Shown: positions 32,094 to 60,825, counted from the first letter of the stretch. The stretch: 64,000 nt of DNA from a virus (IMGVR_UViG_3300029288_000090:62557-126556); one strand, 5' to 3'. Numbers and translations: made by a program. Notes: generated by a model from the sequence alone, not told the origin.

Positions 32094-32111
32094 TCATATA
32101 AGGAGATACCC

Positions 32112-42279: not shown

Positions 42280-42308
42280 CAAATCTAACCGCACCTCTGG
42301 AGATTAAC

Positions 42309-42539: not shown

Positions 42540-42542
42540 AAT

Positions 42543-43028
42543 ATGTTTCAACAGTTGTTAGAAGATATCAGAAGTAAGTTGTATAGAGGAATGGAGATAG
42601 ATCCGGAGCTTGACGAAGGGATGTTAGATCAGTTAAATAGTATTAAAGGAATCACTGTTAAATCTGTATGTTTTGGACATCCAGAAGGTACTCGATCTTC
42701 TATGAAAGCTGGAGATAGCTCATATGCTGGAATAGCCTTTACTGATACTACTTCTAAAGATCCTACAGTAGTTTACGATAAGTGGAGAGACCTTCCAGGA
42801 GATGTCAATGTATTTGCTTGGGGTGGGCCTCATGGGAATTGGGTTGTCTGGAAAAATGGAGAACACAGAAATTCCGATATTTTTCCTTCTGATCCTTCTT
42901 CTTATCCAATTGATAGGGTAAGTATTTCTGTAGATGCTAATTTTAAGACATCGGAACAAAATGTTGAAGAAGTGAAGAACTGGTTCAATCAGTTAATACA
43001 GGCTATGGATTACAAGCAGAAGATGTAG
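42543..43028 (+). CDS. putative internal head protein (MFxxLL leader; xCxGH motif)
   Basis: MFQQLLEDIRS; IDPEL...LN.I.GI...SVCFGHP. Confidence 0.6.
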   Translation: MFQQLLEDIRSKLYRGMEIDPELDEGMLDQLNSIKGITVKSVCFGHPEGTRSSMKAGDSSYAGIAFTDTTSKDPTVVYDKWRDLPGDVNVFAWGGPHGNWVVWKNGEHRNSDIFPSDPSSYPIDRVSISVDANFKTSEQNVEEVKNWFNQLIQAMDYKQKM

Positions 43029-43048
43029 ATGTGTTGAGAGGCAATATA

Positions 43049-43429
43049 ATGTTTCAATCACTACTTCAATCAGTTAAAGAGTTTATGAATGTAGAGCAAC
43101 ATCCTGAACAGGTTGTAGAAGTAATTCATCTTAATACATTAGAAAAGATAAAGATGTTGGGACATTTTTATGGGTGGGATATAGATAAAGATACAGATGT
43201 TAAAATAGAAGGACCTCATCCTGATTCATTAGTAGGATGCTACATAGAAACTACTGATCCTGATGAACCTGTTGGAGGGTTAAGGAAAGGTCCAATTATT
43301 AAACTTATAAATTTTATGTTCAATGCAACATCTACTCCTCGTCGTGTTCGAATTTGGACTAAGACTATGAGGGGATGGAGGGATGATGTTGGACATATGT
43401 TTGTGGATATAAATGATATTATGGATTAG
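43049..43429 (+). CDS. putative internal head protein (MFxxLL leader)
   Basis: ATG at 43049 gives MFQSLLQSVKE; GAGG RBS. Confidence 0.6.
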   Translation: MFQSLLQSVKEFMNVEQHPEQVVEVIHLNTLEKIKMLGHFYGWDIDKDTDVKIEGPHPDSLVGCYIETTDPDEPVGGLRKGPIIKLINFMFNATSTPRRVRIWTKTMRGWRDDVGHMFVDINDIMD

Positions 43430-43437
43430 GTGCTATT

Positions 43438-43659
43438 ATGTTTAATGAGCTTTTGGAAGACATAAGAGATAAAATGTCTCCAAAGCCTTATAGGATATTT
43501 CGTGATACTTTTGATCGAACTACTATGAAAGCCAAGGCTTTGGATTCTGAAGATAGACAAGTGGACGTTTATGGAACTTATGCGTGGGCTCCTCAATTGA
43601 CTTGGTATGATGAGACCAATAAAGAATGGATTGAAAATTGGGAATGGGATCATATCTAG
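43438..43659 (+). CDS. putative internal head protein (MFxxLL leader)
   Basis: MFNELLEDIRD. Confidence 0.6.
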   Translation: MFNELLEDIRDKMSPKPYRIFRDTFDRTTMKAKALDSEDRQVDVYGTYAWAPQLTWYDETNKEWIENWEWDHI

Positions 43660-43668
43660 GAGAATAAT

Positions 43669-44274
43669 ATGACCAGATTTGGAAGTTTATACGGAAAAAT
43701 ACGGGAAGCTGTTGAAGTTACTCCCCCCGAATATGTGGGAGAAGAAGATACAGGAAATGATTTTAATCAGGAGATGATCCGTGATCTACATTTAGTTCCT
43801 CCTAAAAAGAAACGTCAGGATTATGATCCAGAGCAGTTAGATATCGGGTCATCTGTAGAAGAGGAGCATACCTCCGATCCAGAATTAGCGGCAATTATTG
43901 CAGCTAATCATTTAGATGAAATTCCTGATTACTATACTCGTCTAAAGGAAATGGAGGAGGAGGCCAAAGGAGAAAAAGGCGGAGATTTAGATTTAGAAGC
44001 AGAAGAAGGTCCGTCCCTGGAGGATGAAGAAGAGAAAGCCAAGCCAATGCAGAACATGGAGGGAGTAGTTGAAGAGAGTAGATCTAATGAATCTAATGGT
44101 TTTGAGAAAGAACGTAATAGGGCACAGGGAGAAAGAAATAGAAGGAAATCGATGTTAGCTCTTCGTGGAATTACAGGAGAGGAAGCTGATAAAATTATTA
44201 AAAACTATTCCTCTTCTGAATTTGACAGGTTTATAAAAAAGCATCCTATGCGAAAGAAAGATAATGAAGAATAG
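43669..44274 (+). CDS. DUF5661-like head-region protein
   Basis: QLDIGSSVEEEHT.DPELA..IA..HLDEIPDYYTRL. Confidence 0.7.
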   Translation: MTRFGSLYGKIREAVEVTPPEYVGEEDTGNDFNQEMIRDLHLVPPKKKRQDYDPEQLDIGSSVEEEHTSDPELAAIIAANHLDEIPDYYTRLKEMEEEAKGEKGGDLDLEAEEGPSLEDEEEKAKPMQNMEGVVEESRSNESNGFEKERNRAQGERNRRKSMLALRGITGEEADKIIKNYSSSEFDRFIKKHPMRKKDNEE

Positions 44275-44303
44275 AAAGCCAAGCTAATGCAGAACATGTA
44301 GGG
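44024..44303 (+). repeat. 40 bp direct repeat (44024-44063 and 44264-44303), 3 mismatches
   Basis: ATGAAGAAGAGAAAGCCAAGCCAATGCAGAACATGGAGGG versus ATGAAGAATAGAAAGCCAAGCTAATGCAGAACATGTAGGG. Confidence 0.85.
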
Positions 44304-44376
44304 CGTCAAGGAAAATTAGTCTATGTGTTCTTCTTTTAGCTGTTTTTTGATTTGGTTGGGAATAAGGAGACATAAT

Positions 44377-44598
44377 ATGTATTATATAGGATTGTTTGAA
44401 GCGAAAGACGGACCACGATGGCGTCTTATGCATAAAAATGGGAACATCCTTTCTACTTCAGAATCGTACAGTAATTTGAAGGAAAGAGAGGATACTGTTG
44501 TCAATCTGGCTATTTCTCATAAATTCGAGATTCGGAATATGGATACTGGAAAGCAGATGACGATTTCTGAAGGAAGAATCGTTGAATTGGTTGAATAG
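44377..44598 (+). CDS. YegP/DUF1508-family protein
   Basis: LFEAKDG.RWRL..KNGNILSTSESYSN; AAGGAG RBS before ATG 44377. Confidence 0.75.
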   Translation: MYYIGLFEAKDGPRWRLMHKNGNILSTSESYSNLKEREDTVVNLAISHKFEIRNMDTGKQMTISEGRIVELVE

Positions 44599-44637
44599 GA
44601 ATAAGGTTTTTGGTTTACATACAAGGAGAATTATATT

Positions 44638-45312
44638 ATGATAAACCCCAATGCAATTATGGAAAACGTAGCTCGCAATGTTGAACGACCTTACGTTGTA
44701 AGAGTACTCAAGTATGGAAATCGTGTTTTCAACGTTGAGGAGTCAAAGTACTATTTGGACAAAAAGATCGCCTTGGACGAGGCCAAGAAGATTAAGCCTC
44801 CCGTCAACTGTTTTGTTGAAGTTAGAGAAAAGAATAATGAATCTTTTGTTGATGATAAGTGCGTTATCTGGCGGTCAGACAAAGTCGTCGAATCTGGAAG
44901 CAAAGGTGATTACGGTTTGAATCCAGATACTTCCTCTGGCGGACCCGAGGAAAGTGACAATCCCAAAGAGATCAAGCATGAGGCTGGAAACACTGGAAAG
45001 TTGAAGCCAGAGAAAACTCCCAATCCTGGAGATAAACTTCCAGAAGGAAAGGCAGATGAAGCAGCCAAGAAGGACAACAAGTCAGGAAAATCTCCAAAGA
45101 CTGCTACGGCTAAGCTCCCTTTGAAGCAAGAAAAGACTCCTAATCAAGGGACGTTGGAAGCCAAGAAGAAAGACGATAAGAAGAAGGATGATAAGAAAGG
45201 TAAGAAGATGGCCAAAGAAGGACGTGTTCCATCATCTCCTACAGGCGATGCAGAAGGGACACTTATCAAGGATCTGACGGAGGGAGAAGGAGATGATGAA
45301 GAGGGCGGTTAG
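44638..45312 (+). CDS. charged low-complexity head-region protein; may continue in the -1 frame to 45488
   Basis: 224 aa, Lys/Glu rich; the frame 45309-45488 continues the acidic sequence. Confidence 0.65.
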   Translation: MINPNAIMENVARNVERPYVVRVLKYGNRVFNVEESKYYLDKKIALDEAKKIKPPVNCFVEVREKNNESFVDDKCVIWRSDKVVESGSKGDYGLNPDTSSGGPEESDNPKEIKHEAGNTGKLKPEKTPNPGDKLPEGKADEAAKKDNKSGKSPKTATAKLPLKQEKTPNQGTLEAKKKDDKKKDDKKGKKMAKEGRVPSSPTGDAEGTLIKDLTEGEGDDEEGG

Positions 45313-45498
45313 GTGAGGATCTTGAATATCAATATCCTGAAATGGAAAGTGATTTGATGGAGTTTAGAAATATCATCTCCAGAATAGTCAAACGGATAAA
45401 AGAATCAGGTCGTGGGGAGGATATGAACATAGGCGAATTCTTTGGTGAAGAACTTAACGAGATTCTTGAAAGTTTAGAAGTATTCTAAGGATTAGCTT

Positions 45499-45849
45499 AT
45501 GCCTTTCGAAGATATAGAATTGTCAGGAGTAGGTCCTGTTCACCATGCTCGTATCCCAATCACTGATGGATCAGTAGTTACATTGGTAGAGGGTGAAGAG
45601 AATTTACGAGTATGGATATGGAGGATGGAGATTAGTAGTAATGTTGCTTCCAAGTTTACTCTCCGTTCGGGAAACAAACCCATTTTTGATATGCATGCTG
45701 GACAAAAATGGGGTCATGTAGATGGATCAGAAGCTCGGTCTCCAAGATACGTTACAGATGTTGGAGATTCTTTTACGGTCCAATCCAGCCAATCTTCAGT
45801 AGATGCCAACGTATACTTACAATGGCAGATGAAGGGGCCAGAAGCCTAA
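45499..45849 (+). CDS. putative structural beta-sandwich protein
   Basis: 116 aa, beta-strand-like pattern. Confidence 0.55.
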   Translation: MPFEDIELSGVGPVHHARIPITDGSVVTLVEGEENLRVWIWRMEISSNVASKFTLRSGNKPIFDMHAGQKWGHVDGSEARSPRYVTDVGDSFTVQSSQSSVDANVYLQWQMKGPEA

Positions 45850-45914
45850 TGTGTAATTCTCACTGTGTGCTATGATGTTAGGAACTAAAAGTCATCTAAT
45901 TGTAAGGACAAGAA

Positions 45915-46229
45915 ATGAAAAGCTCAGACGAAGTTTTGATATGGATTGTTGGGCTGCTTATTGTTGCCAGTATTACCTGGTTAGTCAAGGAGGTTCTAGC
46001 TTTGCGTAATGATTTAACTAAACTCCAGACAGAAACACAACTTCAAATAAAACAGATAACACAAAATTGTGCTCGACATCAACATTGGGCAGAAGGTATT
46101 CAAAAAAGTATGGGACGGATGGACAGGAATCTCATCCGTCTATGCTCCAAGCAAGAGGTTGAATTTGAATCTCCTTCTGATGAAGATAATTCTACTCCTA
46201 ATATTGGTGGCGAAGAGCATGAAGGTTAG
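45915..46229 (+). CDS. single-TM coiled-coil protein (holin-like position and shape)
   Basis: N-terminal TM helix, then coiled coil. Confidence 0.5.
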   Translation: MKSSDEVLIWIVGLLIVASITWLVKEVLALRNDLTKLQTETQLQIKQITQNCARHQHWAEGIQKSMGRMDRNLIRLCSKQEVEFESPSDEDNSTPNIGGEEHEG

Positions 46230-46232
46230 TGT

Positions 46233-49200
46233 ATGCTAATTAAAAGAGCTCTAGCATCCTTCTCCTATGATACCACTCAGTTTGATTTGGTGAGTGGAAA
46301 GCTCCATTTAATGCATTTTCATGTTGAAGACACCCAACGAACTTGTGTGGGAGTTAATACAGAAGATGGATCAGGTGAGTATGATACCCTTGTTGGGTAC
46401 AATGCTGGTCATTTGTCTACTGGAGGATATAATGTTTTAATAGGAAACCAAGCTGGGGAAAATATAACAACTGGTTTGGCAAATACAGTTGTAGGAACAT
46501 GGAGTTTACAGAATAATCTTACTTCTAATTTCAATACGGCACTTGGATACTATTCGTTAGTTACTTGTGTTGGAGCAACTAATACAGCTGTTGGGGCTTT
46601 CTCATGTAGTTTGTTGACCACTGGCTTTGAGAATGTAGGAGTAGGGTACTATGCTCTTCAGAGAGTTGCTCAAGGTTATTACAATATGGCGCTAGGATCC
46701 GGAGCACTTCGGAATATGGCTCCTCCTCAACGGGTTATAACTGCGTTTGCTGATTTAGGAGGAGGGCAGACACAAGTCACAACTTCTACTTCTCATAGTT
46801 TGACTACGGGAGATTACGTATATATTTCAGGAACTACTCATTATGACGGATGGTATACATTAGTCAGTGGTTCAGGAACTACTTTTGTTATAACAAAAGC
46901 GTTTGCAGGAGACGATGCAGCAGGTTACGTTATTAAAGATACAGAAGCAAGTAAAAATGTGGCAGTAGGTTCTGGGGCTGGACGAGATTGTGGTACAGGT
47001 GGACATAATGTATTTATAGGATTTCAGGCAGGGTGTCTGGCCAATAACTTAGTAAAATGTGTTTACATAGGATACCAAGCAGGATTCAATATAGATAGAA
47101 GTTATACACTGGCTATTGACATTTCGGATACAGCTGATCCTTTGATTTATGGGGAATTTGACAATAGGTTAGTTCTAATCAATGGAGATTTTACTGTTAC
47201 TGAACAATGCACAGCATCTTATTTTGAATCAGTAGTAGTAACAGGAACACAACCTTATGCCTGCACTTCTACTACTTTGAATACAAATCTAAATGCTGAT
47301 CTTTGGGATGGGTATCATGCATTTATGGGAGATACGGAAGAGCCAACTGGCTTTACATCTACAGGATATGCAGCAACTACACTTTCTTTTGTGGATGCAA
47401 CAAGAGTATTTACAATTACTGGAGACCATGACGTTTGGATTGAGGGAGTCAAATACTCCAAGTCAACGGATGATATAACTATAGACGATAGTACAGGACT
47501 TCACTTTGTTTACTATGATAGTTCAGGTGTGCTAAGTCAGAGCACTACTTTTCCTGGATGGAATTCTTGTACTATAGCGTTTATTTATTACAATACAACT
47601 ACTGATAAAGGAATCATAGGGAATGAACGTCATGGAATAGTCATGGATTCAGCTACTCATACCTATCTCCATGAAACAGTAGGGACAAGGTTTGAAAGTG
47701 GATTTGCTACATCTTTTACGGATACTACTTTTTCATCAGATGCCGGAATTATTTGGGATGAGGATCTTGAGCATGATATAGATGCTCAGACAAATTGTTA
47801 TGTATTTTATAAGAATGGGTCTGCAGATTATGAATGGGATGGTCCAGGGAGTTTATACTATAAATTAAACGGAGCAACATTACGGTATAATAACGGAAAT
47901 AATTTAGCAGATGTTCCTGTTGCTAATTATGTAGCTTACTGGATGTTTGCAACAAACGATCCTGATACCCCTATAACATTTTTAATGGGACAAAGAGTAG
48001 ATGTCACCTTAGCAAATGCAAGATCAAATAATACGTACACTTCACTTAGTTTTGGAGTTCTTCCCTACAAAGAGATGAAACTTCTATTTCGTGTACTCTT
48101 GCAGAATTTAGGAGGAACTGCAACTTACATCGAAACGCAAGATTATAGATCCGTCTCTAATCTCCCTGCAGGAACATACGTAGCTACTTCTCACAGTACT
48201 TTAACTGGACTAAATTGGGCATCTGCTGGACATACGTTTGATACAAATTTAAATTTAGGATCTTATGGACTAATCACCGGAAGTATTACAGCATCCTCTG
48301 GGAATTTAAGTTTAAGTGCAACAAGTGGTTATGTTTACTTGGCTTCAGATATTCTGACTGATAGATGGTTAAGTTACGTTGGCAACTTGTTTTTAGGAAT
48401 AGGAGCTGCTGGAGCAGGGACATTAGAAAATACTTTTGGTCCAGAAGGATATGAGAATACAGGTTTAGGATATAATACTTTATATAATATTACTACTGGT
48501 TCTTTTAATATGGCAGTGGGGACTTCTTCTTTATACAATCTTCTAACCGGATCATACAATGTAGGACTAGGAAGAAGATCTTTATACACTCTGACATATG
48601 CGAATTACAATACAGGAATAGGAGCTGAAACTTTATACTCCTTAACAACTGGGAATTACAATACGGCAATTGGATATCAGTGCCTTTATTCTAATGTAAC
48701 AGGAACTACAAATGTAGGTATAGGACCACAAGCTGGTTATAGTTGTATAGGATCAGGAAATGTTTTTGTAGGATATCAGGCAGGATACAGTGAGACTGGA
48801 AGTAATACATTATATATTTCTAACTCCAATACAGTAGATCCCTTGATATATGGAGAGTTTGATAATGGTTTGGTTGTTATCAATGGAGATCTCTCTATAA
48901 CTGAACAATGTACAGCATCTTACTACTATTCTGATGTTGAGCAAGGAACTTCCCCTTATAGTTGTGTATCAACAACTTTGAATGTTAACTTAAATGCAGA
49001 TCTTTGGGACGGACAACATCTTCCTACTGTAGAATCAGCTTCGTCTGGAATGTACTTGACTAATGATGGAAGTACGTTATCTTGGGTAGATATCAATTAT
49101 GAAAATCCTTTGACTTTTGATTATCCTTTATCCAGAACAGGAAATGTAGTCAGTTTTGGATATAATACTACAAATCTTCAACTTACATCCAATCAACTCA

Positions 49201-49952
49201 ATACGATTCAAGACATAGCAACAACTTCTACCCCTCAATTTTCTTTGTTAGGGGTAGGGATTGCCGCTCAAACAGGAACACAGACAGCCGGAATTTACTG
49301 TTACAGCACTTCTAACGCAGCTCCACTTTCCTTGATCGGAGTCAATGTAGCTGTAAATAGTACAAGAGGCGGTGGTAATCAATTCAATTTGTATGGTTTG
49401 AATTTCCAAGCGTTTTATACTCCTACTGGGGCAACAGCAAATAGAGCCTGTACAACTATGGTAGGATGTAGAGGAACAGTTACGTGTACAAACGAATCTG
49501 GAAGTTCCTATAATTCTACTGTAACAACAGCTTATGGTATGTTGGGAGGAGTTTCTTCTGAAAAGCCCTTATCTGGAACTGGAGCTGTCACTGTAACTAC
49601 AGCCTATGCTTACTATGCTGCATCATGTGCTGTTGTCAATGGAGCTACGATAGGAACGTCATATGCATTTTTTGATGCTGGACAGATAGGTGCTTCTACT
49701 AATTGGGGGTTAGGAATAAACACAGCAAATAGTTATATCAGTGGTAGTTTATCTATTGGAAAGAATACAGCTCCAACACAAGCTTTGGATGTTGTTGGAT
49801 CTATAGAAGCGTCAGTAGGATATAGGTGTGGAGGAACAGCACCTGTAGCAGATGGAACTTACACAGTAGGAGCTCCATTGACTGGAGGAGGATCAAACGG
49901 AACAATTACAACAAAAGGGGGTATTATAACAGCAGTTACGCAAGCCACATAA
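46233..49952 (+). CDS. tail fibre/adhesin-like protein with NTAxG 14-residue repeats
   Basis: 1239 aa, Gly/Thr/Asn rich; N(T/V)A(L/V)G..(A/S)L repeats; duplicated DPLIYGEFDN..NLNADLWDG block; ends ITTKGGIITAVT. Confidence 0.75.
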   Translation: MLIKRALASFSYDTTQFDLVSGKLHLMHFHVEDTQRTCVGVNTEDGSGEYDTLVGYNAGHLSTGGYNVLIGNQAGENITTGLANTVVGTWSLQNNLTSNFNTALGYYSLVTCVGATNTAVGAFSCSLLTTGFENVGVGYYALQRVAQGYYNMALGSGALRNMAPPQRVITAFADLGGGQTQVTTSTSHSLTTGDYVYISGTTHYDGWYTLVSGSGTTFVITKAFAGDDAAGYVIKDTEASKNVAVGSGAGRDCGTGGHNVFIGFQAGCLANNLVKCVYIGYQAGFNIDRSYTLAIDISDTADPLIYGEFDNRLVLINGDFTVTEQCTASYFESVVVTGTQPYACTSTTLNTNLNADLWDGYHAFMGDTEEPTGFTSTGYAATTLSFVDATRVFTITGDHDVWIEGVKYSKSTDDITIDDSTGLHFVYYDSSGVLSQSTTFPGWNSCTIAFIYYNTTTDKGIIGNERHGIVMDSATHTYLHETVGTRFESGFATSFTDTTFSSDAGIIWDEDLEHDIDAQTNCYVFYKNGSADYEWDGPGSLYYKLNGATLRYNNGNNLADVPVANYVAYWMFATNDPDTPITFLMGQRVDVTLANARSNNTYTSLSFGVLPYKEMKLLFRVLLQNLGGTATYIETQDYRSVSNLPAGTYVATSHSTLTGLNWASAGHTFDTNLNLGSYGLITGSITASSGNLSLSATSGYVYLASDILTDRWLSYVGNLFLGIGAAGAGTLENTFGPEGYENTGLGYNTLYNITTGSFNMAVGTSSLYNLLTGSYNVGLGRRSLYTLTYANYNTGIGAETLYSLTTGNYNTAIGYQCLYSNVTGTTNVGIGPQAGYSCIGSGNVFVGYQAGYSETGSNTLYISNSNTVDPLIYGEFDNGLVVINGDLSITEQCTASYYYSDVEQGTSPYSCVSTTLNVNLNADLWDGQHLPTVESASSGMYLTNDGSTLSWVDINYENPLTFDYPLSRTGNVVSFGYNTTNLQLTSNQLNTIQDIATTSTPQFSLLGVGIAAQTGTQTAGIYCYSTSNAAPLSLIGVNVAVNSTRGGGNQFNLYGLNFQAFYTPTGATANRACTTMVGCRGTVTCTNESGSSYNSTVTTAYGMLGGVSSEKPLSGTGAVTVTTAYAYYAASCAVVNGATIGTSYAFFDAGQIGASTNWGLGINTANSYISGSLSIGKNTAPTQALDVVGSIEASVGYRCGGTAPVADGTYTVGAPLTGGGSNGTITTKGGIITAVTQAT

Positions 49953-49965
49953 CAAGGAGTTTAGT

Positions 49966-50304
49966 ATGAAGATTACATTTGCAGAAAGAATTTCAATTAC
50001 CCATTTGTTTCCAGCAAAAGCAAACTTGACTACTATGCGTTTAGTCAGTGATATAACCAGGAGAGTAAGTTTCAGTGAAGAAGAAAAAGAGAAGTATGGA
50101 ATTGTCTTTCATCCAGATGGAAGAGTAGAATGGACCAATGGAATAGACTCTGAAGGAGGGAAGAAAGAATTCACCATTGAGTTTAACAAGCCTGAAATAC
50201 AATTCCTCAAGGATCGTGTTCAGGTATTGGATTCTGAAGGAGCAATTACAATGGTTCTATTGGACCTTTGTGAAAGAATTAAGCAAGAAGAGTTAAAAGA
50301 TTAG
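49966..50304 (+). CDS. putative tail fibre chaperone
   Basis: 112 aa helical protein directly after the fibre gene. Confidence 0.45.
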   Translation: MKITFAERISITHLFPAKANLTTMRLVSDITRRVSFSEEEKEKYGIVFHPDGRVEWTNGIDSEGGKKEFTIEFNKPEIQFLKDRVQVLDSEGAITMVLLDLCERIKQEELKD

Positions 50305-50305
50305 T

Positions 50306-50665
50306 ATGGCGAAGTTAGGATACAGACATACTGAAACAGGGGTTACATTATACGTAATTCTTACGGATGCTAACGATTCTCATATGAAAAGTTCTGATAG
50401 TACTTTCGTTTCATATGTTGCAGCTAATTGGGGCGATTATGATTTGCCTATGTCTGAATCAGACAGCTATTTGTATGAGTATACGATGCCATCCATTTCT
50501 GATGGAGAGTACACTGCGGAAATATTTTTGCAGGATGGAGCAAGTCCATCTTTAACTGATACAAAAGTTGGAGAACAATCCTTTAGTTGGAAGGATAATG
50601 ATTTCTTTAACTTGACAGACGTATCTGGTGGAACAGGAGATACATCCAATATAGGAAGTTGGTAA
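50306..50665 (+). CDS. putative structural protein
   Basis: 119 aa, acidic and beta rich. Confidence 0.5.
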   Translation: MAKLGYRHTETGVTLYVILTDANDSHMKSSDSTFVSYVAANWGDYDLPMSESDSYLYEYTMPSISDGEYTAEIFLQDGASPSLTDTKVGEQSFSWKDNDFFNLTDVSGGTGDTSNIGSW

Positions 50666-50666
50666 A

Positions 50667-52952: not shown

Positions 52953-52957
52953 CTCTG

Positions 52958-55900
52958 ATGGTTACTACATCAATCCCCAAAGGCGACAGAGAGAAGGTTT
53001 TTGAGAAGTATCAAGTAGTAGAAACTCAGGACCTTCCTCCACGTGTGCTGTGTAGAGTCGTATATCCCATATGCAATATTGGTCAATTAAACGCTAACAA
53101 CCGGATGTATGAAAGAGATGTCTGGGATAAGGTTATTTCTGATCCTAACGTTTCAGAAAAGTTGAATAACAGATGTCTTTATGGGGATGCCGAACATCCC
53201 AAAGAGTCTCAAAGTCGTCTGGAACGAACTGCACATGTCGTCAATAAGATGTGGATAGACGAAGATACTAATAGAGTTATGCAGGAAATGGACGTCTTAG
53301 ACACTCCTTACGGACGGATTATAGATACATTGCTGGAGTCCGGGTGTGGGGTAGGTGTCAGTACTCGAGCAGAAGGAGAGTTAGAGGAGGCATTAGATGA
53401 AGCTGGAAATAAGTTCTATCGAGTACTTCCGGAAGCATATCGGTATATTACTACTGACTTTACAGCAGATCCAAGTACTTCCAATCCTTATCCGGAAGAA
53501 GTTCAAAGAGCTATGGTAGAATCAATTAATAAAGATCAAAAGGAGATGGACAAGGAGTTTGCGGTAGCTATTTTGGAATCCTTGCAAGTTGACTCTGCTA
53601 AATCGCTATGTGAATCTATTAAGGGAGAAGGCAAGAAAGATCTTTCAGAGAAGAAAATAACTTCTGTGAGATTGGATGAATCTATTAAAGGAAAGTCTGA
53701 TCCTGCATTTACCAAATGTTTATTAGCTTTTATAGATGAGAAATGGTCAGAAACACGGGAAAAAGATTTTGTCAAATTGATGAATGAATATAGAGAACAC
53801 TTCAAAGTGGCTCCTAAAGAAGCTATAATTAGCTATTTGGGACGGTTATGGAAGACAAACGAAAAATCTATACAACCTTTTGTCAGTGAGAAGTTTGCTT
53901 CTGATTATAAAGCACTTATGTCAGAAGAAATAGGACATGACGATGAATTAGATGATGAAGAAGTAGAAAGAGGTGAAGCTGCTGAGGAGTATAATGCTGA
54001 CGGTTCTCCAGTTGTAGCTGTTAAAGAGGAACCTGAAGGAGATATGGAGGGTGAGTTGAATGGAGGTGCCTCCAAACCGTCTACTATGGAGGGAGAACCC
54101 GTTATGGGAGAACCTCCAATTCCTGGTATAGGGGATATAGATCCAAATGTAACGGGACTGGAAATGGGCCTGGACTTCCCTACCAGTGCATTAATGATTC
54201 CCACGCCTATAATAGATCCACGGACAGCTTCTGTTAAGGAATTAGCCAATAGATTTGGATATTTGGATTGGATGACAGATTCAGGAAATGATACTTCCTC
54301 TCCATATTTGAAACAATTGGAGAAGGAGAGATTGGATCTTCTGGACGAACTATCCTATCGCTGGAATCGAACAATGCAGGAGTCCAAGGATAAAGATCAG
54401 AAGATAGACTTCCGGATAGATGAATCCAATGTTTTGACTGGTGAAGATGTATCTTATGGAAAGTCAGTGGTTCGCTTCTTGTGTCAAGGTTGGGATGGGA
54501 ATGCTGAAAAGAAATTGACATCTACAATACTTGAAAACAAAGAACGGATATTGTCTTCGTCCAAAGCAGAAACGAAAGATTATTTAGGAAGAGTGTGGGA
54601 GTCCAATTCTTCTGAATTGATTAATAACGCTTCTGATGAATTTGTTGACGAACTTCTGGAGTTGATTAATAGTCCAGATTTGGATGAGACTGAAGAGATT
54701 AAGAAGATGTATCAATCAGCAGGAATCAAAGCTCCCAAGGGAAAAGGAATTCACACAAAGAAGTTTCATCGTATGGCAGTAGATGTCATGAAGGGATACA
54801 AGAAAGGCGGATTGACTGACAAGGAACGTCAGATTGCCTATGCTACAGCAATGAAGAAGCTTGGTCCGGAAAAAGCTGTCAAGGCAGGACACAGACATTC
54901 CAAGAATGAGAGTATAACTGAATTGATTTATGAAAATTATTGGAGTTTAGTTGATTTCCTTTCTGGAAAGAAATCATCTGCTCCTAAGGTCAAAGAAAAG
55001 GAAGAAACTCCAAAAAAACGTCCTTTGAATCAGAGAACAGAAGCTGATATTATTGCAGGAAGGTTGGAGGAGAAGAAGGTTAATGAAGAAGATGAACATT
55101 ATAATGATATGGAGGGTGATGTTAATGAAGGAACGTATAGATTCACTGTAAACAACTTACATGTTGAAATAGTGGACGAGAACAAGAGGTATACTTATGA
55201 GGATATAGAACATGCTTTGGGAGTATTTATTGAATATGGAGAAGCTGATGTTACAAAACAGTTTCCTAATTTATTTGTCAGCGTAGATGCTGATTATATC
55301 TATGATTTAGAAGAAGGAAAGACAAAGAAGAAGGGTAAAAAAGTCAACGATTCTATAGATTTAGTAATCAAAGAGGCTTCTATTCGTGCTGAACGGGATA
55401 AGGCTTTGGAGATTATTGAAGATCTTAACAGTAAGATAAAAGGTTTGGAAGGAAGAGGGAGTCTTGAATCTAAAATCTTGCTAGCCAAACTAAAAGCAAC
55501 GACAAGTGAATTAACTGAAAAATGTGATGATATGTTGGAGAAGTATAATGCTTTGAAGTTGCGGCTAAAAGAAACATTCGGAGAACTTAAAATTGCACGA
55601 GCCAAGACCGATACATTAGTCAGTGAATTGGATAAGATTAAGCAAGATAAAGATGCCATGGATCAGACTATAGTCAGTCTGGAGTCTGATTATAGAACTA
55701 AACTGGAACAGTTGGAGGCAGAGAGAACAGAGGAACGGAAAAATTTATTAGAGAACTATGTACGTGCTGTTCTTAGTGACTCATTTGATCTACTCCCTGA
55801 ACGAACACGAGCACTTCTCGTTGAAAGTAAAACAGTGGAGCAGATAGATGAACGGTTAACTTCTATCAGACAGACGTTGCGTGAGGATGCACTTCATTCT

Positions 55901-56026
55901 TCTAGCCGTATTTCTGAAAATGTTGTTACAGTTGTTCAATCTACAATAGATCCAATGAGATCTAAGATTGCACATGGCGTTGATTTAGCTTGTACAGGTA
56001 TTTTAGGTAATAGGAGTGCTAAATAA
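52958..56026 (+). CDS. prohead protease (T4 gp21-like) fused to inserted modules and a C-terminal scaffold coiled coil
   Basis: NANNRMY, YGDAEHP, LDTPYGRII..L...G..GVSTRAEG, DFTADPS; C-terminal long coiled coil; abuts the capsid gene. Confidence 0.85.
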   Translation: MVTTSIPKGDREKVFEKYQVVETQDLPPRVLCRVVYPICNIGQLNANNRMYERDVWDKVISDPNVSEKLNNRCLYGDAEHPKESQSRLERTAHVVNKMWIDEDTNRVMQEMDVLDTPYGRIIDTLLESGCGVGVSTRAEGELEEALDEAGNKFYRVLPEAYRYITTDFTADPSTSNPYPEEVQRAMVESINKDQKEMDKEFAVAILESLQVDSAKSLCESIKGEGKKDLSEKKITSVRLDESIKGKSDPAFTKCLLAFIDEKWSETREKDFVKLMNEYREHFKVAPKEAIISYLGRLWKTNEKSIQPFVSEKFASDYKALMSEEIGHDDELDDEEVERGEAAEEYNADGSPVVAVKEEPEGDMEGELNGGASKPSTMEGEPVMGEPPIPGIGDIDPNVTGLEMGLDFPTSALMIPTPIIDPRTASVKELANRFGYLDWMTDSGNDTSSPYLKQLEKERLDLLDELSYRWNRTMQESKDKDQKIDFRIDESNVLTGEDVSYGKSVVRFLCQGWDGNAEKKLTSTILENKERILSSSKAETKDYLGRVWESNSSELINNASDEFVDELLELINSPDLDETEEIKKMYQSAGIKAPKGKGIHTKKFHRMAVDVMKGYKKGGLTDKERQIAYATAMKKLGPEKAVKAGHRHSKNESITELIYENYWSLVDFLSGKKSSAPKVKEKEETPKKRPLNQRTEADIIAGRLEEKKVNEEDEHYNDMEGDVNEGTYRFTVNNLHVEIVDENKRYTYEDIEHALGVFIEYGEADVTKQFPNLFVSVDADYIYDLEEGKTKKKGKKVNDSIDLVIKEASIRAERDKALEIIEDLNSKIKGLEGRGSLESKILLAKLKATTSELTEKCDDMLEKYNALKLRLKETFGELKIARAKTDTLVSELDKIKQDKDAMDQTIVSLESDYRTKLEQLEAERTEERKNLLENYVRAVLSDSFDLLPERTRALLVESKTVEQIDERLTSIRQTLREDALHSSSRISENVVTVVQSTIDPMRSKIAHGVDLACTGILGNRSAK

Positions 56027-57498
56027 TGAATTTGAAGGTTGCTATAGAAGAGCGTATGCGTGATATTACAGAGAAGCGTAAAAGGCTTGTTCTGCAGTGG
56101 GATCCGTACATCAGCGCGGTTAATGAATGGATGCAAGGTAACGGGGGTGGTTCATTAACTGATTTCGATAAGCAGAATATGGCGCAGTGCCTTGAGAACG
56201 CATTGATCGAAACTGGGCTTCGTGGAAACCGCCGTCTGTTGCAAGAAGCGACTACGGGAGACGCCATTCAGTTTATGGCGATTCAGCTTCCAGTGATTGC
56301 AGCGTTGATTCCCAGTTTGGTATTGAACAAGGTTGCCATTGTTCAGGCATTGGACAGACGTCAAGGTGCTGTGTTTTATCTTGACGCTTTGTACGGGACG
56401 ACCAAGGGATCTATCACTGCGGGAGACAGTATGATTAACGCCCAGACTGGTCATGACAGAACCAGGGCTGGTCGTCGATATGCTGTTACTACGGTTGAGA
56501 ACGAAACGTTGGCAGATGACAGTCTGGTATCCAACACCATCACTGGCTCGTTGGATTATCGTCCGATGCTGGGAACGGTTCAAATTACGCACGGAAGTGA
56601 GATTATTACTGATAAGGAGAATCCTGGCCAGTTGATCTCAGAAACTACCAGCAATCCTTGCGGATGGGTCAAGGTAGATGGAACATTCAGTGTGACATTA
56701 AATGCCACTCCTACAAGTGGTGGAAATGTTACAGTGAACTATTGCTACTATTACGATACTGCAGATAGTGGGAGTAGTCTTGTTCCAGAAGTGAACATCC
56801 AATTGCGTGCAGAAATGTTAACGGCTCAGGACTTCCCACTTCAGGCGAAGTATTCCGTTGGTTCCAGTATTGATCTCGAGAAAGCTCATGGACTGATCTT
56901 GGAAGACGAGATCATCAAATTCCTTGGCGGTGAGATCAAGTTTGAAGTTGATCAGTATGGGTTGGATCAGATCTATACTGCGGCAACTGGATCGAATGCT
57001 GCGACGGGAACAGGAACATGGACAGCGGTTCCTGGTTCGGGACAAGAATGGCTTTGGAAGAAGTACGAATTTCTGGATAGGATTGAGTACGGATCCAATA
57101 ACATCTACAGTAAGACGTTGCGTGCATTTTGCAACTTTATAGTTGCTTCAAACAATGTAGCACGTATTATTCGTCAGATGGGTGATCATTTCAAACCTGC
57201 TCCAGGACTAGACAAGCAGGTCCCAACAGGGCCAATTGAACTTGGTACTTTGGACGGACGTTTAGTTATTCAGGATCCGTTCTTGACAGCGGATAGGTAC
57301 GTTCTTGGTTTTCGCGGTGACAACTATTTGTTCGCCGGGGCTGTGTACGCTCCTTATATCCCGTTGTTCAGTACGCCAACACTGGTTACAGCAGATCTCA
57401 TGGCTCAGAAGGGCTTTATGAGTTCAGCAGGATTTAAGGTAACCAATGAAGGTATGTTTACGTATGGAGACGTTGACATGAGTGGTTTGTCAACGTAA
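56026..57498 (+). CDS. major capsid protein, T4 gp23-like
   Basis: LENA....LLQEATT, VQAL....G.VFYL, L.AKYS....DL...HGL..E, GTLDGR..V..DPF, YAPYIPL. Confidence 0.92.
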   Translation: MNLKVAIEERMRDITEKRKRLVLQWDPYISAVNEWMQGNGGGSLTDFDKQNMAQCLENALIETGLRGNRRLLQEATTGDAIQFMAIQLPVIAALIPSLVLNKVAIVQALDRRQGAVFYLDALYGTTKGSITAGDSMINAQTGHDRTRAGRRYAVTTVENETLADDSLVSNTITGSLDYRPMLGTVQITHGSEIITDKENPGQLISETTSNPCGWVKVDGTFSVTLNATPTSGGNVTVNYCYYYDTADSGSSLVPEVNIQLRAEMLTAQDFPLQAKYSVGSSIDLEKAHGLILEDEIIKFLGGEIKFEVDQYGLDQIYTAATGSNAATGTGTWTAVPGSGQEWLWKKYEFLDRIEYGSNNIYSKTLRAFCNFIVASNNVARIIRQMGDHFKPAPGLDKQVPTGPIELGTLDGRLVIQDPFLTADRYVLGFRGDNYLFAGAVYAPYIPLFSTPTLVTADLMAQKGFMSSAGFKVTNEGMFTYGDVDMSGLST

Positions 57499-57544
57499 TA
57501 GTTTGCGCGTCTTGTTGGTGGCAAGGCGTGTAGGTGCTGTTCGT

Positions 57545-57588
57545 GGGGCGGGAGTTGTTGCATTCTCCCGCCCTTTAAATCTTTTAGA
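57545..57588 (+). terminator. intrinsic terminator after the capsid gene
   Basis: GGGCGGGAG ... CTCCCGCCC followed by TTTAAATCTTTT. Confidence 0.7.
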
Positions 57589-57606
57589 TCAGGTGGAGAC
57601 GTTATT

Positions 57607-58026
57607 ATGGAAAACAAAAAGAAACCAGTCAGTCGGGTTATTCGTTCTTTACAAACAGGAGGGATCAAAACAACTTTAGGTTGTTACTCCGTGGAGAAGA
57701 ATGAAATCCTTACCATAACATGTGGATCGGAAGAAGAGTTTGCACGACTTCTAAAGATAAGAAGTTTTGTGCCTGCTTCAGAAGAAGAACTTCTGGCTTG
57801 GGTGAATCGAGATATTCCGGTTATTGAAGATGAATTTCCTTCAGATCCTCCATATGAAGAGGCATTGATTCCTGAAGATGAATTCTGCTCCGATGGAACT
57901 TCTTTTGAAGGAGATGTTGAAGAAGGTACTAATAAAGTCCCCGCTGAGGGAAATGAGTTAGTTTCTGAAAGTAAGACACTCAAAGAAGATAGTATCAAAC
58001 CGAGTCGGAGACGTGGGCAAGGATAA
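57607..58026 (+). CDS. hypothetical protein
   Basis: 139 aa with an acidic tail. Confidence 0.6.
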   Translation: MENKKKPVSRVIRSLQTGGIKTTLGCYSVEKNEILTITCGSEEEFARLLKIRSFVPASEEELLAWVNRDIPVIEDEFPSDPPYEEALIPEDEFCSDGTSFEGDVEEGTNKVPAEGNELVSESKTLKEDSIKPSRRRGQG

Positions 58027-58032
58027 TAGACT

Positions 58033-59463
58033 ATGGCAAGGTTACTTAATTCAGGAAGTACATCCTTTAGTTCAGTAGATCTGACTGCATCTATGGACGT
58101 CGATCTAATCTCTTATACTTGTCTGAAGAGTGTTCTTTTAGATATTCGAGCAGATCTTGGAACATCTAGTTATCCATTAGATACTTCTGCTTCTGTTATT
58201 ACTGTTTCTGCTTGGATAACGAGAACAAATGGAGAAGAGGTAGAAGTATTTTCTGAAGAAGTAACCAAAGCGTCTGGTGAAATACAACTTCCTTATAATT
58301 TCTATAAGAAGATCCTTGTATTAGCAGGAGAGGTTATTACGGTAACTGCCAGTAGTAGTAACCCCTCCGACGTTTCTGTAGCAGGAGAAGTTTATATATT
58401 TGGGAGAAACGTAACTTACTCTTCTGTTGCATTTACACAAGTTGATTTAACTACTTTAGTTGAGCTTGGATCGTATACAGCAGATCATGTATTTGAAACA
58501 TTTGTTAGAGTTGATGTTGGAACGTCAACATATAGTTTAGATTCAGGAGATTCAGAATTTACTATTTCTGGAGATATTACAGGTGGTGAAGGTATTGAAT
58601 CTTCTGGCTATAGTGCCTCTATCTCAAAGTCAAGTGGGATAACTCGTTTTATCTATATGTTTGATGATGCAGTAAATCTAAACGAGAATGATATATTTTC
58701 CATAAAACTTCTTTCAGACGATCCGTCAGATGTAGCGGTTTCTGGAGTTGTTTACTTTGCTCTCCTCAGCACAACAACTAGATCTTCTATATTGGATTGG
58801 ATTAAGACTGAATTCCAACCATTGGTACTAGCAACTCCAGATGATACAATTTATCAGCAGATAGATAATGCTATAACTTATTGGAACACACATTCAGGAT
58901 ATAAGGTTAGTGCTGTTGTTTCCGCAACTCGGGGAGAACATAGAGTTCAAATGGATGCTCAGTTTAAAACTGTAGTACAAGTTTGGCCTACACAAAATAC
59001 GGAGTGGATTTTAAACGATCATCCAATGTGGTCTTTATTAGGAATAACAATATTAGATAATGTTACGACTGATTTGATTATAATGTCGGAGGCCTTTAAA
59101 AATTACAGGCAGTATGTAGGGACTAATTTTAGTTGGACATGGGAAAGAAGTACAGATCCAGCCGTAGGCGGTTATTTATATTATGAGAATATTCCTTCTC
59201 AAAACGACGCTTTGTATGTTATTGGAACAAAAAGAATTACAGATAATGAAGATATAGAAGATGATTATATTTTAAACTGGTTAAGATACTATTCATTGTC
59301 TTTAGTCAGAATGATCGAAGGAAACACCTTGAGAAAATCCAATATTATTAACATCAGAAATGATGGGCAGGAACAGTTAGATCAAGGGAAAGAGGAGAAG
59401 AAAGAACTTCAGGTTGCATTGAACAAAGAGGCACGATGGGTTGCTTTAGCTAAGAGATTTTAG
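58033..59463 (+). CDS. neck/head-completion protein (gp13-like C-terminal domain) with two tandem N-terminal beta domains
   Basis: QQIDNAITYW, WLRYYSLSLV...EG..LRK....NDG......G.EEK.EL; duplicated VDLT/PSDV.V.G.VY blocks. Confidence 0.65.
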   Translation: MARLLNSGSTSFSSVDLTASMDVDLISYTCLKSVLLDIRADLGTSSYPLDTSASVITVSAWITRTNGEEVEVFSEEVTKASGEIQLPYNFYKKILVLAGEVITVTASSSNPSDVSVAGEVYIFGRNVTYSSVAFTQVDLTTLVELGSYTADHVFETFVRVDVGTSTYSLDSGDSEFTISGDITGGEGIESSGYSASISKSSGITRFIYMFDDAVNLNENDIFSIKLLSDDPSDVAVSGVVYFALLSTTTRSSILDWIKTEFQPLVLATPDDTIYQQIDNAITYWNTHSGYKVSAVVSATRGEHRVQMDAQFKTVVQVWPTQNTEWILNDHPMWSLLGITILDNVTTDLIIMSEAFKNYRQYVGTNFSWTWERSTDPAVGGYLYYENIPSQNDALYVIGTKRITDNEDIEDDYILNWLRYYSLSLVRMIEGNTLRKSNIINIRNDGQEQLDQGKEEKKELQVALNKEARWVALAKRF

Positions 59464-59464
59464 T

Positions 59465-60040
59465 ATGTTTATGAGTTTACTACAACATATACAAGAAGCG
59501 GTCAGTAATGATGAAAAGTACGAATTTTTTATTGAACGTACAAATAATCATATTCGATTGGTTCAAGAGGCTGCTGAAAAGATAGTGAGTGCTTATCCTG
59601 AATTAGGGGCACTTGTGTTTCAGGTGGATAGTCATGATGCCAGTAAGTTTGAAGATCCAGAATTAACTCCTTATATTGAGTTGACTTGGAAGAAGAAGTT
59701 AGAGAAAGAAGAAGAAGATTATAAAACAGATGACCGGGCGATTCATGATGCAACTTTACATCATATTAAGAATAACAGGCACCATCCTGAATTTCATTTA
59801 GAAGATAAATCTAAAGCCAATTTAGATTCTACTAATAGAGATAAATCTATTTCTGTTGTGGATGCTAGTAATATGTCAGACACAGATGTAGCTGAAATGG
59901 TTGCTGATTGGCAAGCTATGTCTGAAGAGTTAGGAACGAATACAGCTCGCGAATGGTATGATAAAGTAAAAGATGTGCGTTGGCATTTTTCTGATCATCA
60001 AAACGAATTGATAGATAAACTTCTTAAGGTGTTTGAGTGA
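59465..60040 (+). CDS. DUF5662/HD-like metal-dependent hydrolase with MFxxLL leader
   Basis: H...V, HDASKF, HH...NRHHPEF, EMVADW.AMS. Confidence 0.7.
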   Translation: MFMSLLQHIQEAVSNDEKYEFFIERTNNHIRLVQEAAEKIVSAYPELGALVFQVDSHDASKFEDPELTPYIELTWKKKLEKEEEDYKTDDRAIHDATLHHIKNNRHHPEFHLEDKSKANLDSTNRDKSISVVDASNMSDTDVAEMVADWQAMSEELGTNTAREWYDKVKDVRWHFSDHQNELIDKLLKVFE

Positions 60041-60825
60041 TGTTCCAACAACTTCTAAAACATATCCGTGAGAAATCTGTTCATGATAGGTGGGTGTGTT
60101 TCGATTTTGATGGCGTATGTTCTCAATATCATGATAATTTTGAGGAGGATGTATTTGGGGATCCTATTCCTGGAGTTGCTGAAGCAGTTAAGATTATTCG
60201 TGAGGAGGGATTGAAGGCAGTTCTATTTACTGCCAGAAAAGTAACTCCAAAGTTAAAAGAATGGTTAGAGGAAAATGGGTTTGAATTTGATACAATCAAT
60301 GATACTTCTCACAATCCTCCTTCAGCCAGTAAGGAAAAGCCAGTAGCAGAACTTTACGTGGATGATAGAGGATATAGATTTGACCAAAACAATCCAGAAC
60401 AATCCATTCAGGAATTGTTTTCTTTACTAGATATAAATGAAAATCTTACAGATTATGCGAAAGAAGAATTGGATAAAGCTGGATTGTTTGATAAAGATTC
60501 TGATTATGGAGGCATGTTGGGTGATGCTGTCATGGAACTAATGACTGTGTTTAGTAAGCAAGATCATTCCGGATTTTCAGCACAATGTGCAAGTGAACTA
60601 TTTACGAGATTAGCAAATTGTAAGCCTTTGAGTCCACTTACTGATGATCCTGAAGAATGGATGGAGGTAACTGATTTTGATAATTCTGGAAAATCAGTTC
60701 ACCAAAGCAAACGGGATCCTATGTGTTTTAGCAATGATGGAGGAAAGACATATTATAATGTAGATGATGCAAAAAGAAAGAAACATAAATCGGAATCTTA
60801 TAAGAAGAAGGAAAATGCTGCCTAA
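60040..60825 (+). CDS. HAD hydrolase fused to a second phage domain, with MFxxLL leader
   Basis: CFDFDGV, LFTAR, KP.AELYVDD; second domain YAKEEL...VFSKQ.HSGFSA..KPL.PLT. Confidence 0.78.
   Translation: MFQQLLKHIREKSVHDRWVCFDFDGVCSQYHDNFEEDVFGDPIPGVAEAVKIIREEGLKAVLFTARKVTPKLKEWLEENGFEFDTINDTSHNPPSASKEKPVAELYVDDRGYRFDQNNPEQSIQELFSLLDINENLTDYAKEELDKAGLFDKDSDYGGMLGDAVMELMTVFSKQDHSGFSAQCASELFTRLANCKPLSPLTDDPEEWMEVTDFDNSGKSVHQSKRDPMCFSNDGGKTYYNVDDAKRKKHKSESYKKKENAA

What the first reader, a model, noticed from the sequence alone, without database searches (positions are those of the whole stretch)
42543..60075. Shared N-terminal leader on unrelated head-region proteins: a candidate capsid-targeting (cargo addressing) system
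Seen: five otherwise unrelated ORFs begin with the same amphipathic peptide: 42543 MFQQLLEDIRS, 43049 MFQSLLQSVKE, 43438 MFNELLEDIRD, 59465 MFMSLLQHIQE, 60040 MFQQLLKHIRE. The consensus is MFxxLLxx(I/V)(R/K/Q)(E/D/S). Looser versions start 43669 (MTRFGSLYGKIREA), 41407 (MNNFDIILNYIRSKIEES) and 42309 (MLTELL). The Leu-Leu codons differ between copies (TTGTTA, CTACTT, CTTTTG, TTACTA, CTTCTA), so the peptide is conserved rather than the DNA. All five lie in the virion module; I saw no MFxxLL start among the 1-38 kb genes. Known: T4 internal proteins carry a roughly 10 aa capsid-targeting sequence ending in Glu that the gp21 protease removes. Inference: this phage has its own distinct address tag that loads a swappable set of payload proteins into the prohead for injection into the host.
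Basis: partly seen in the sequence, partly recalled or inferred. Interest (0 to 1): 0.85.

Follow-up and report, generated by a model that had tools for sequence, protein, structure and literature searches.

The report
Capsid-loading tag on phage head-region proteins
An uncultured phage distantly related to T4 puts the same 11-residue starting peptide on at least five unrelated proteins encoded among its head genes, most likely as a T4-style "load me into the capsid" tag that its head protease cuts off; one tagged protein carries a domain known to block a bacterial immune system.

Summary
In the complete 126.5-kb phage genome, MFxxLLxx[IVL][RKQ][EDS] occurs only at the five reported gene starts, plus one 24-codon antisense ORF. 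All five genes lie in the head module. Their remaining sequences are unrelated, and the codons differ.

The phage has a T4-type portal, a gp23-family capsid protein and a gp21-family (Peptidase_S77) prohead protease. Each leader is a strongly amphipathic helix containing hydrophobic-x-Glu. The same motif sits where the capsid protein aligns with the T4 gp23 maturation cut.

Five relatives carry their own variants on other unrelated head-module ORFs, for example MSKFQELHKVVKE, MKKLLESLLEQD…, MxFxEIFxKVNE and MxxLLxxLxE. Two cargo domains, DUF5662 (HD-like) and Tad3, occur elsewhere without a leader or with other lineage-specific leaders, so the leader is an add-on.

Best reading (about 0.7): a diverged T4-type capsid-targeting sequence loading variable cargo, probably counter-defence proteins. 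Packaging, cleavage and injection are untested.

This is a new variant of a known kind. This scan has already noted similar leaders in several other T4-like uncultured phages.

The parts
42543..43028 (+). Leader-bearing cargo gene 1 (161 aa; leader MFQQLLEDIRS = 42543-42575). No relative found; function unknown.
   Evidence: No Pfam, PHROG or PADLOC hit. Only itself among 5.8 billion proteins.
43049..43429 (+). Leader-bearing cargo gene 2 (126 aa; leader MFQSLLQSVKE = 43049-43081).
   Evidence: Single distant homologue P0123, 37% identical overall with a nearly identical leader MFQSLLQSIRE, which also supports ATG 43049 as the start.
43438..43659 (+). Leader-bearing cargo gene 3 (73 aa; leader MFNELLEDIRD = 43438-43470).
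59465..60040 (+). Leader-bearing cargo gene 4 (191 aa; leader MFMSLLQHIQE = 59465-59497). DUF5662 domain, probably an HD-superfamily hydrolase.
   Evidence: Pfam DUF5662, E 3.4e-29, covers residues 20-188 only, so the leader lies outside the domain. AF2 model has pLDDT 93 overall but 52 for residues 1-10. Nearest folds are HD-GYP and PgpH phosphodiesterases, Z 8.5/8.3. Invariant H29, H57-D58, H100, H106-H107, D148.
60040..60825 (+). Leader-bearing cargo gene 5 (261 aa; leader MFQQLLKHIRE = 60040-60072). HAD-like phosphatase domain fused to a Tad3-family domain (residues 135-256).
   Evidence: Pfam Tad3 PF25185, E 7.7e-34, 116.5 bits against a cut-off of 27. HAD-like N-terminal half by PHROG 1238/415 and PDB 2obb. 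Its start overlaps the stop of 59465 (TGATG).
41407..42279 (+). Probable sixth member (290 aa; MNNFDIILNYIRS, leader core shifted by two residues).
   Evidence: Same register as G001's MSKFQELHKVVKE and MNKFQGIHQAVKNE. GGAG ribosome-binding site upstream.
43669..44274 (+). Probable seventh member (201 aa; MTRFGSLYGKIRE). Contains DUF5661.
   Evidence: In relative G004 the DUF5661 piece lies inside a 923-aa protein.
52958..56026 (+). Prohead protease (gp21/Peptidase_S77 domain, about residues 37-224) fused to a roughly 800-residue Glu-rich C-terminal part. This part is the presumed scaffold/core and docking partner of the leaders.
   Evidence: Pfam PF03420, 34 bits (cut-off 27); PHROG 207, E 2e-29. 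Aligns with T4 gp21 across the ...HP and GVS[ST]R motifs. 42 [LIV]-x-E sites, 4.1 per 100 aa against a genome mean of 1.9.
56026..57498 (+). Major capsid protein (gp23 family). Predicted maturation cut after ALIE62 (nt 56209-56211).
   Evidence: Pfam Gp23, E 1.5e-35. The T4 gp23 site L-T-E65|A aligns with ENAL[IVL]E|[TG]G, conserved in G000, G001, G003 and G005.
38497..40218 (+). Portal protein; marks the upstream border of the head module.
   Evidence: PHROG 213/1497, E 4e-27.

Best explanation
The MFxxLLxx[IV]x[E] peptide is this phage lineage's version of the T4 capsid-targeting sequence (CTS).

Proposed mechanism: the leader is a short amphipathic N-terminal helix. It docks the protein onto the scaffolding core while the prohead assembles; here the core is probably the long C-terminal part of the 1022-residue protease fusion. 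The gp21-type protease then removes the leader by cutting after the Glu of a hydrophobic-x-Glu site. The remaining protein stays inside the head and leaves with the DNA at infection.

The tagged set is variable: three proteins with no or almost no known relatives, an HD-like hydrolase (DUF5662) and a HAD-phosphatase/Tad3-family fusion. It most likely serves early take-over or counter-defence.

Shown here: the shared leader, its restriction to head-module genes, its conservation under purifying selection, its modular add-on nature, the T4-type protease and capsid genes, and the matching site in the capsid protein.

Inferred, not shown: binding to the core, cleavage, presence in virions and injection.
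For: (1) The leader is non-random and sits only at N-termini.

(2) All members lie in the head operon, tightly coupled to head genes.

(3) The phage has a Peptidase_S77 protease that aligns with T4 gp21 across the His and Ser motifs, a gp23-family capsid protein and a T4-like portal.

(4) Every leader holds [LIV]-x-E within residues 5-11. The capsid protein has ALIE62|TG exactly where T4 gp23 is cut (L-T-E65).

(5) T4 propeptides read from NC_000866 are the same kind of peptide: gp24 MAKINELLRE, gp67 MEGLIEAIKS, Alt MELITELFDE, and the internal-protein CTS MKTYQEFIAE (PMC8442874). The hydrophobic moment of the five leaders falls in the 86th-100th percentile of this genome's N-termini, and the T4 peptides in the 76th-93rd.

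(6) Relatives have lineage-specific variants on other unrelated head-module ORFs: 6 in G001; about 20 of 63 ORFs in G002 start MKKLLE; 4 in G003; at least 4 in G005.

(7) The leader is more conserved than the cargo.

(8) The leader is an add-on. Pfam DUF5662 and Tad3 start after it. 54 of 120 Tad3-family proteins start directly at the domain. DUF5662 proteins carry at least three leader classes, or none.

(9) The leader is floppy in the AF2 model.

(10) The 42543-43659 cassette is replaced by other genes in the closest relative, as at the T-even internal-protein loci (PMC3012670).
Against: There is no experimental evidence of packaging or cleavage, and the phage is uncultured.

Two leaders end in Ser or Asp rather than Glu, so their cut would have to be at L-L-E (residues 5-7) or further downstream.

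The cargo proteins are acidic (pI 4.7-5.3), whereas T4 IPI-III are highly basic.

The leader has no sequence identity to the T4 CTS, and the hydrophobic residues sit in a different register.

A leaderless-looking HAD paralogue in the early region of G001 starts MKMLLDKNI, a faint resemblance outside the head module.

G005's Tad3 N-terminus (MYNLLTRIQE) aligns with the HAD-Tad3 linker of the fusion, so it may not be a true leader.
Confidence: 0.7

Rival explanations
1. The leader marks head-assembly (core or scaffold) proteins that are taken into the prohead but then degraded or expelled, like T4 gp67, gp68 and gp22. On this reading they are not injected cargo.
For: The members at 41407-44274 lie between portal and protease, where T4 has gp67 and gp68. 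T4 gp67 starts MEGLIEAIKS, close to MFQQLLEDIRS. The proteins are acidic like core proteins.
Against: Two members are folded enzymes or binding domains (HD-like, HAD, Tad3) with no obvious assembly role. The cassette is not conserved even in an 82%-identical-capsid relative, which is unlike essential core proteins. [LIV]-x-E density in 42543, 43049 and 59465 is at genome average.
Confidence: 0.15
2. The leader is a recognition peptide for another shared partner, such as a modifying enzyme (as this scan proposed for an RB43 tag linked to a radical-SAM enzyme), a chaperone or a membrane. It would then have nothing to do with the capsid.
For: The genome has an extra radical-SAM enzyme.
Against: That radical-SAM gene has no homologue in the complete relative G001, which has six leader ORFs. 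The leader has no Cys, Ser or Thr core to modify. All members sit in head operons, and the leader carries the motif found at the capsid protein's predicted cut.
Confidence: 0.08
3. The conservation acts on DNA or RNA rather than on the peptide, as a recombination handle for cassette exchange or a translation-initiation element.
For: The genes are exchanged as cassettes. The first codons are A/T-rich.
Against: Nucleotide identity is only 16-23/33, with different synonymous Leu and Arg codons, while the hydrophobic i, i+3, i+4, i+7 spacing is kept. Relatives keep the peptide pattern with different residues.
Confidence: 0.04

Closest known systems
Phage T4 capsid-targeting sequence (CTS) on internal proteins IPI, IPII, IPIII and Alt, and the N-terminal propeptides of gp24 and gp67, removed by the gp21 prohead protease (Mullaney & Black 1996, as cited in PMC5694885; PMC3012670; PMC8442874)
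   Same: A short (about 10-residue) amphipathic N-terminal peptide shared by otherwise unrelated proteins. It contains hydrophobic-x-Glu. The phage has a gp21-family protease, a gp23-family capsid protein and a T4-like portal. The cargo set varies between relatives. One cargo carries an anti-defence domain, as T4 IPI* is an anti-restriction protein.
   Different: The sequence and register differ (MFxxLLxxIxE against MKTYQEFIAE). The cargo is acidic rather than basic. The cargo genes sit inside the head operon, whereas the T4 ip genes lie elsewhere. The protease is fused to a roughly 800-residue presumed scaffold. The cargo includes enzymes (HD-like, HAD). Nothing has been tested experimentally.
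Long N-terminal propeptides of head and ejection proteins of giant phages phiKZ, 201phi2-1 and SPN3US, cut at [SAG]-x-E by a gp21-like protease (PMC5694885)
   Same: A gp21-family protease cutting after Glu. N-terminal propeptides are thought to target proteins into the prohead. SPN3US paralogues gp53 and gp54 share an identical 15-residue N-terminus.
   Different: Those propeptides are mostly over 100 residues long, the residue at P3 is small (A/S/G) rather than aliphatic, and the shared N-terminus there is on paralogues, not on unrelated proteins.
Phage P1 DarB N-terminal capsid-targeting signal (PMC9024508)
   Same: An N-terminal signal (30 residues) sufficient to load an anti-restriction protein into the capsid.
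   Different: A different phage type, no shared leader family across many cargo proteins, and no gp21-type processing.

Membership tests
T4-type CTS / gp21-processed head-internal proteins | Genome encodes a gp21-family (Peptidase_S77) prohead protease | tested here: met
   Pfam PF03420, 34 bits against a cut-off of 27. PHROG 207, E 2e-29. Alignment with T4 gp21 keeps the ...HP and GVS[ST]R motifs.
T4-type CTS / gp21-processed head-internal proteins | gp23-family major capsid protein and T4-like portal | tested here: met
   Pfam Gp23, E 1.5e-35. Portal PHROG 213/1497.
T4-type CTS / gp21-processed head-internal proteins | A 10-20-residue N-terminal peptide shared by otherwise unrelated proteins | tested here: met
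T4-type CTS / gp21-processed head-internal proteins | Peptide ends in the protease's cleavage motif (aliphatic-x-Glu) | tested here: met
   I-R-E, I-Q-E and V-K-E at residues 9-11 in three leaders; L-L-E at residues 5-7 in the other two. The same motif occurs at the capsid-protein position aligned with the T4 gp23 E65 cut. This is sequence-level evidence only.
T4-type CTS / gp21-processed head-internal proteins | Sequence similarity to the T4 CTS MKTYQEFIAE | tested here: not met
   No alignable identity beyond Met1 and the terminal Glu. The hydrophobic residues sit in a different register (PMC8442874).
T4-type CTS / gp21-processed head-internal proteins | Leader is necessary and sufficient for encapsidation, is cleaved off, and the cargo is present in virions and ejected | not testable with these tools
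   Needs virion proteomics or reporter fusions; the phage is uncultured.
Tad3 (PF25185, type I Thoeris inhibitor) | Match to the family profile above the curated threshold | tested here: met
   116.5 bits against a cut-off of 27, profile positions 2-117 of 119, residues 135-256 of the 60040 protein. The direct match to the solved Tad3 chain 9b7d_B is weak (E 0.23).
Tad3 (PF25185, type I Thoeris inhibitor) | Binds ThsB and blocks its active site | not testable with these tools
   Function is known only for the characterised member (PMC13728456).
HD-superfamily phosphohydrolases (for DUF5662 at 59465) | HD fold with H...HD...H...D metal ligands | tested here: inconclusive
   Invariant H29, H57-D58, H100, H106-H107 and D148 in 69 sequences. 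The best structural matches are HD-GYP and PgpH at Z 8.5/8.3, within the range that helical proteins can reach by chance. Foldseek found nothing significant.
   G000's extra radical-SAM gene has no homologue in the complete relative G001, which has six leader ORFs.

The most novel reading that the evidence does not exclude
The leader is a readable 'address code' that differs between phage lineages and can be swapped on the same cargo. DUF5662 carries at least three leader classes, and Tad3 occurs with and without a leader. In this clade the code would load inhibitors of nucleotide-signalling immunity into the capsid: a Tad3-family ThsB binder, an HD-like enzyme whose fold resembles cyclic-dinucleotide phosphodiesterases, and a HAD phosphatase. 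These would arrive with the DNA, before any phage gene is expressed. That would be the first case of capsid-delivered anti-Thoeris or anti-CBASS proteins. It would also offer a way to predict injected proteomes from sequence alone.
Probability: 0.3. Interest if true: 0.75.

Novelty: new variant of a known kind. Interest (0 to 1): 0.55.

Why it matters
If the leader is a capsid address, any ORF in this phage clade that starts with it can be read as a virion-packaged and probably injected protein. That would turn a set of proteins with no known relatives into a defined functional class.

It also suggests that a Thoeris inhibitor domain, normally a leaderless early gene, has here been moved into the particle. 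Delivery with the DNA would solve the timing problem of countering defences that fire before phage genes are expressed.

The same cargo domain carrying different lineage-specific leaders is a natural swap experiment. It could guide engineering of protein delivery by non-model phages, as the T4 CTS has for T4.

Tried and rejected
- Megablast of the region against 50,697 phage records found no match, so there are no close cultured relatives. The capsid protein is at most 28% identical to Listeria LIS04, Bacillus SP-15/HSE3 and Maribacter Molly.
- PHROG, Pfam and PADLOC gave nothing for the three small cargo proteins. The protein atlas gave no usable function for 42543.
- A loose DNA pattern for the leader in the relatives was no more frequent than its control. 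The peptide-level scan was needed instead.
- The T4 late promoter TATAAATA is not enriched in the window: 6 found against 6.2 expected. This gives no evidence on timing of expression.
- Foldseek of the DUF5662 model against the PDB found nothing significant. Only the wide VIA search pointed to HD domains.
- Pfam on the head-like ORFs of the unrelated contig L065 did not identify its protease or capsid type.
- The radical-SAM partner hypothesis was rejected for lack of co-occurrence.
- Chance was rejected. DNA-level conservation was rejected.
Full report
**What is there.** The window is the second half of a complete 126,556-bp viral contig with direct terminal repeats. The five reported starts and peptides are exact. 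A six-frame search of the whole genome finds MFxxLLxx[IVL][RKQ][EDS] six times. Five hits are the reported ORF starts; the sixth is a 24-codon antisense ORF inside the gene at 58033-59463. No other real ORF starts with MFxxLL.

In an all-against-all comparison of residues 2-12 of about 180 ORFs, the six best of 16,110 pairs are all among these five genes. The seventh is a pair of true paralogues. A looser form of the motif occurs internally at 7.3e-5 per residue, so about 0.04 N-terminal hits are expected per genome; five are seen.

The sequences after the leader are unrelated by BLASTP. The 33-nt leader DNA is 16-23/33 identical, with different Leu and Arg codons. 42309 does not fit.

**Context.** The genes lie in a head operon:
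- portal at 38497-40218;
- a 1022-residue protein at 52958-56026 whose N-terminal part is a Peptidase_S77 (T4 gp21) protease;
- a gp23-family major capsid protein at 56026-57498.

The protease aligns with T4 gp21, read from NC_000866, across the His- and Ser-containing motifs. Its C-terminal roughly 800 residues are Glu-rich. They hold 42 [LIV]-x-E sites, twice the genome density, as expected of a scaffold that is cut to pieces.

The capsid protein has ENALIE62|TG at the position that aligns with the T4 gp23 site L-T-E65|A. This motif is conserved in four of six relatives.

Cultured phages are only distant relatives, at 28% capsid-protein identity or less.

**The leader compared with T4.** According to the literature:
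- T4 head-internal proteins carry 10-20-residue N-terminal capsid-targeting sequences that gp21 removes by cutting after Glu (PMC5694885);
- the internal-protein CTS is MKTYQEFIAE (PMC8442874);
- T-even internal proteins are a diverse set of defence-countering proteins sharing only the CTS (PMC3012670).

From the T4 record I read gp24 MAKINELLRE, gp67 MEGLIEAIKS, gp22 MLKEQLIAE and Alt MELITELFDE.

The five leaders here are the same kind of object. They are strongly amphipathic helices, with a hydrophobic moment in the 86th-100th percentile of this genome's N-termini (T4 peptides: 76th-93rd). Each contains [LIV]-x-E: I-R-E, I-Q-E or V-K-E at residues 9-11, or L-L-E at residues 5-7. They are not alignable with the T4 CTS, and the register of hydrophobic residues differs.

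**Relatives.** Five related IMG/VR contigs were found through the capsid protein (82% to 43% identity) and read in full. Each has its own leader family on unrelated head-module ORFs.

| Relative | Leaders seen |
|---|---|
| G001 | MFQELLTFVQQE (orthologue of 60040), MFSSLLSHIRE, MFSKILEFVKD, MSKFQDLHKSVKE, MSKFQELHKVVKE, MNKFQGIHQAVKNE |
| G002 | About 20 of 63 ORFs start MKKLLE; eleven share MKKLLESLLEQDIFKPPTEEEL, some followed by weak LRR-like sequence |
| G003 | Four consecutive ORFs: MSFEEIYEKVEE, MEFGDIFEKVNE, YFDEIFDKVNE, MFHGLFERLSE |
| G005 | MKDLLERLFE, MKTLLQTLSE, (M)RELLTTLME |

All variants end in aliphatic-x-Glu.

The three genes at 42543-43659 have no homologue in any of the five relatives, although the flanking genes are conserved, so this is a variable cassette. 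42543 has no relative among 5.8 billion proteins. 43049 has one homologue in 1.8 billion representatives. It is 37% identical overall but 10/11 identical in the leader, so selection acts on the leader itself.

**The leader is an add-on.**
- The Pfam domains start after it: DUF5662 at residue 20, Tad3 at residue 135.
- In the AF2 model of the 59465 protein (pLDDT 93), residues 1-10 have pLDDT 52.
- Among 120 DUF5662 homologues, at least 48 carry this clade's type of leader, 22 carry MKIIKTxxYIKI, 13 carry M(N/S)WYK, and a few start directly at the domain.
- In one unrelated viral contig, the MKIIxT and NWYK[KR]AQ peptides each head several unrelated neighbouring ORFs.
- Among 120 Tad3-family hits, 54 start directly at the domain with no leader. 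Leader-like N-termini occur only on extended or fused forms.

**Cargo.**
- The 60040 protein is a HAD-like phosphatase fused to a Tad3-family domain (116.5 bits). Tad3 is a homodimer that binds ThsB of type I Thoeris and blocks its active site (PMC13728456).
- The 59465 protein has invariant H/HD/H/HH/D residues. Its closest folds are HD-GYP and PgpH cyclic-dinucleotide phosphodiesterases (Z 8.5 and 8.3). This is suggestive but within the range helical proteins can reach by chance.
- All five proteins are acidic (pI 4.7-5.3), unlike the basic T4 internal proteins.

**Rivals.**
- A role as degradable core proteins cannot be excluded for the members between portal and protease. It fits poorly for folded enzymes and for a cassette that is not conserved.
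The extra radical-SAM gene is absent from G001, which has six leader ORFs.
- A DNA or RNA signal is contradicted by the synonymous divergence.

**Verdict.** This is a diverged T4-type capsid-targeting leader with variable, probably counter-defence, cargo (confidence about 0.7). Packaging, cleavage and injection remain untested.

The principle has been known since the 1990s, and this scan has noted comparable leaders in several other uncultured T4-like phages. What this case adds:
- a new leader class;
- its lineage-specific variants;
- leader swapping on the same cargo domains;
- a Tad3-family domain placed behind a capsid address.

Noticed in passing
window 58091-58165 (-): A 24-codon antisense ORF inside the conserved gene 58033-59463 starts MFQDLLEYLKE, a full match to the leader motif. 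About 0.007 such matches are expected by chance in six frames. It is not conserved in relative G001. Unexplained; possibly chance.
   Followed up: partly
L065:7311-15623 (IMG/VR contig 3300033144_008177): An unrelated viral contig has two other leader families on unrelated neighbouring ORFs. MKII[KE]TxK[YF]xK heads a DUF5662 protein, a 146-aa ORF and a 120-aa ORF. NWYK[KR]AQ heads a 72-aa ORF, a 157-aa ORF and a 775-aa WYL-domain protein. The type of head protease in this contig was not identified.
   Followed up: partly
L044-L046 (G002, 49.7-kb fragment): About 20 of 63 ORFs start MKKLLE. Eleven share a 22-residue leader MKKLLESLLEQDIFKPPTEEEL followed by a paralogous part with the motif NGKLNPDGSYDFD and weak leucine-rich-repeat matches. 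This is a large expansion of tagged paralogues between portal and protease.
   Followed up: partly
G001 27007-29643; G005 42308-45043 and 29554-32910: The portal genes of G001 and G005 carry an insertion of about 280-310 residues relative to this window's portal. The G005 capsid gene is split into two ORFs with extra sequence between them. This suggests inteins or homing-endonuclease insertions in head genes.
   Followed up: no
window 59465-60040: DUF5662 is probably an HD-superfamily metal-dependent hydrolase. It has invariant H29, HD57-58, H100, HH106-107 and D148, and its nearest folds are cyclic-di-GMP and cyclic-di-AMP phosphodiesterases.
   Followed up: partly
G004 90629-95756 (L056): In relative G004 the DUF5662 and DUF5661 modules are embedded in adjacent proteins of 648 and 923 residues rather than being separate leader-tagged genes. 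This may be a polyprotein form of the same cargo.
   Followed up: no
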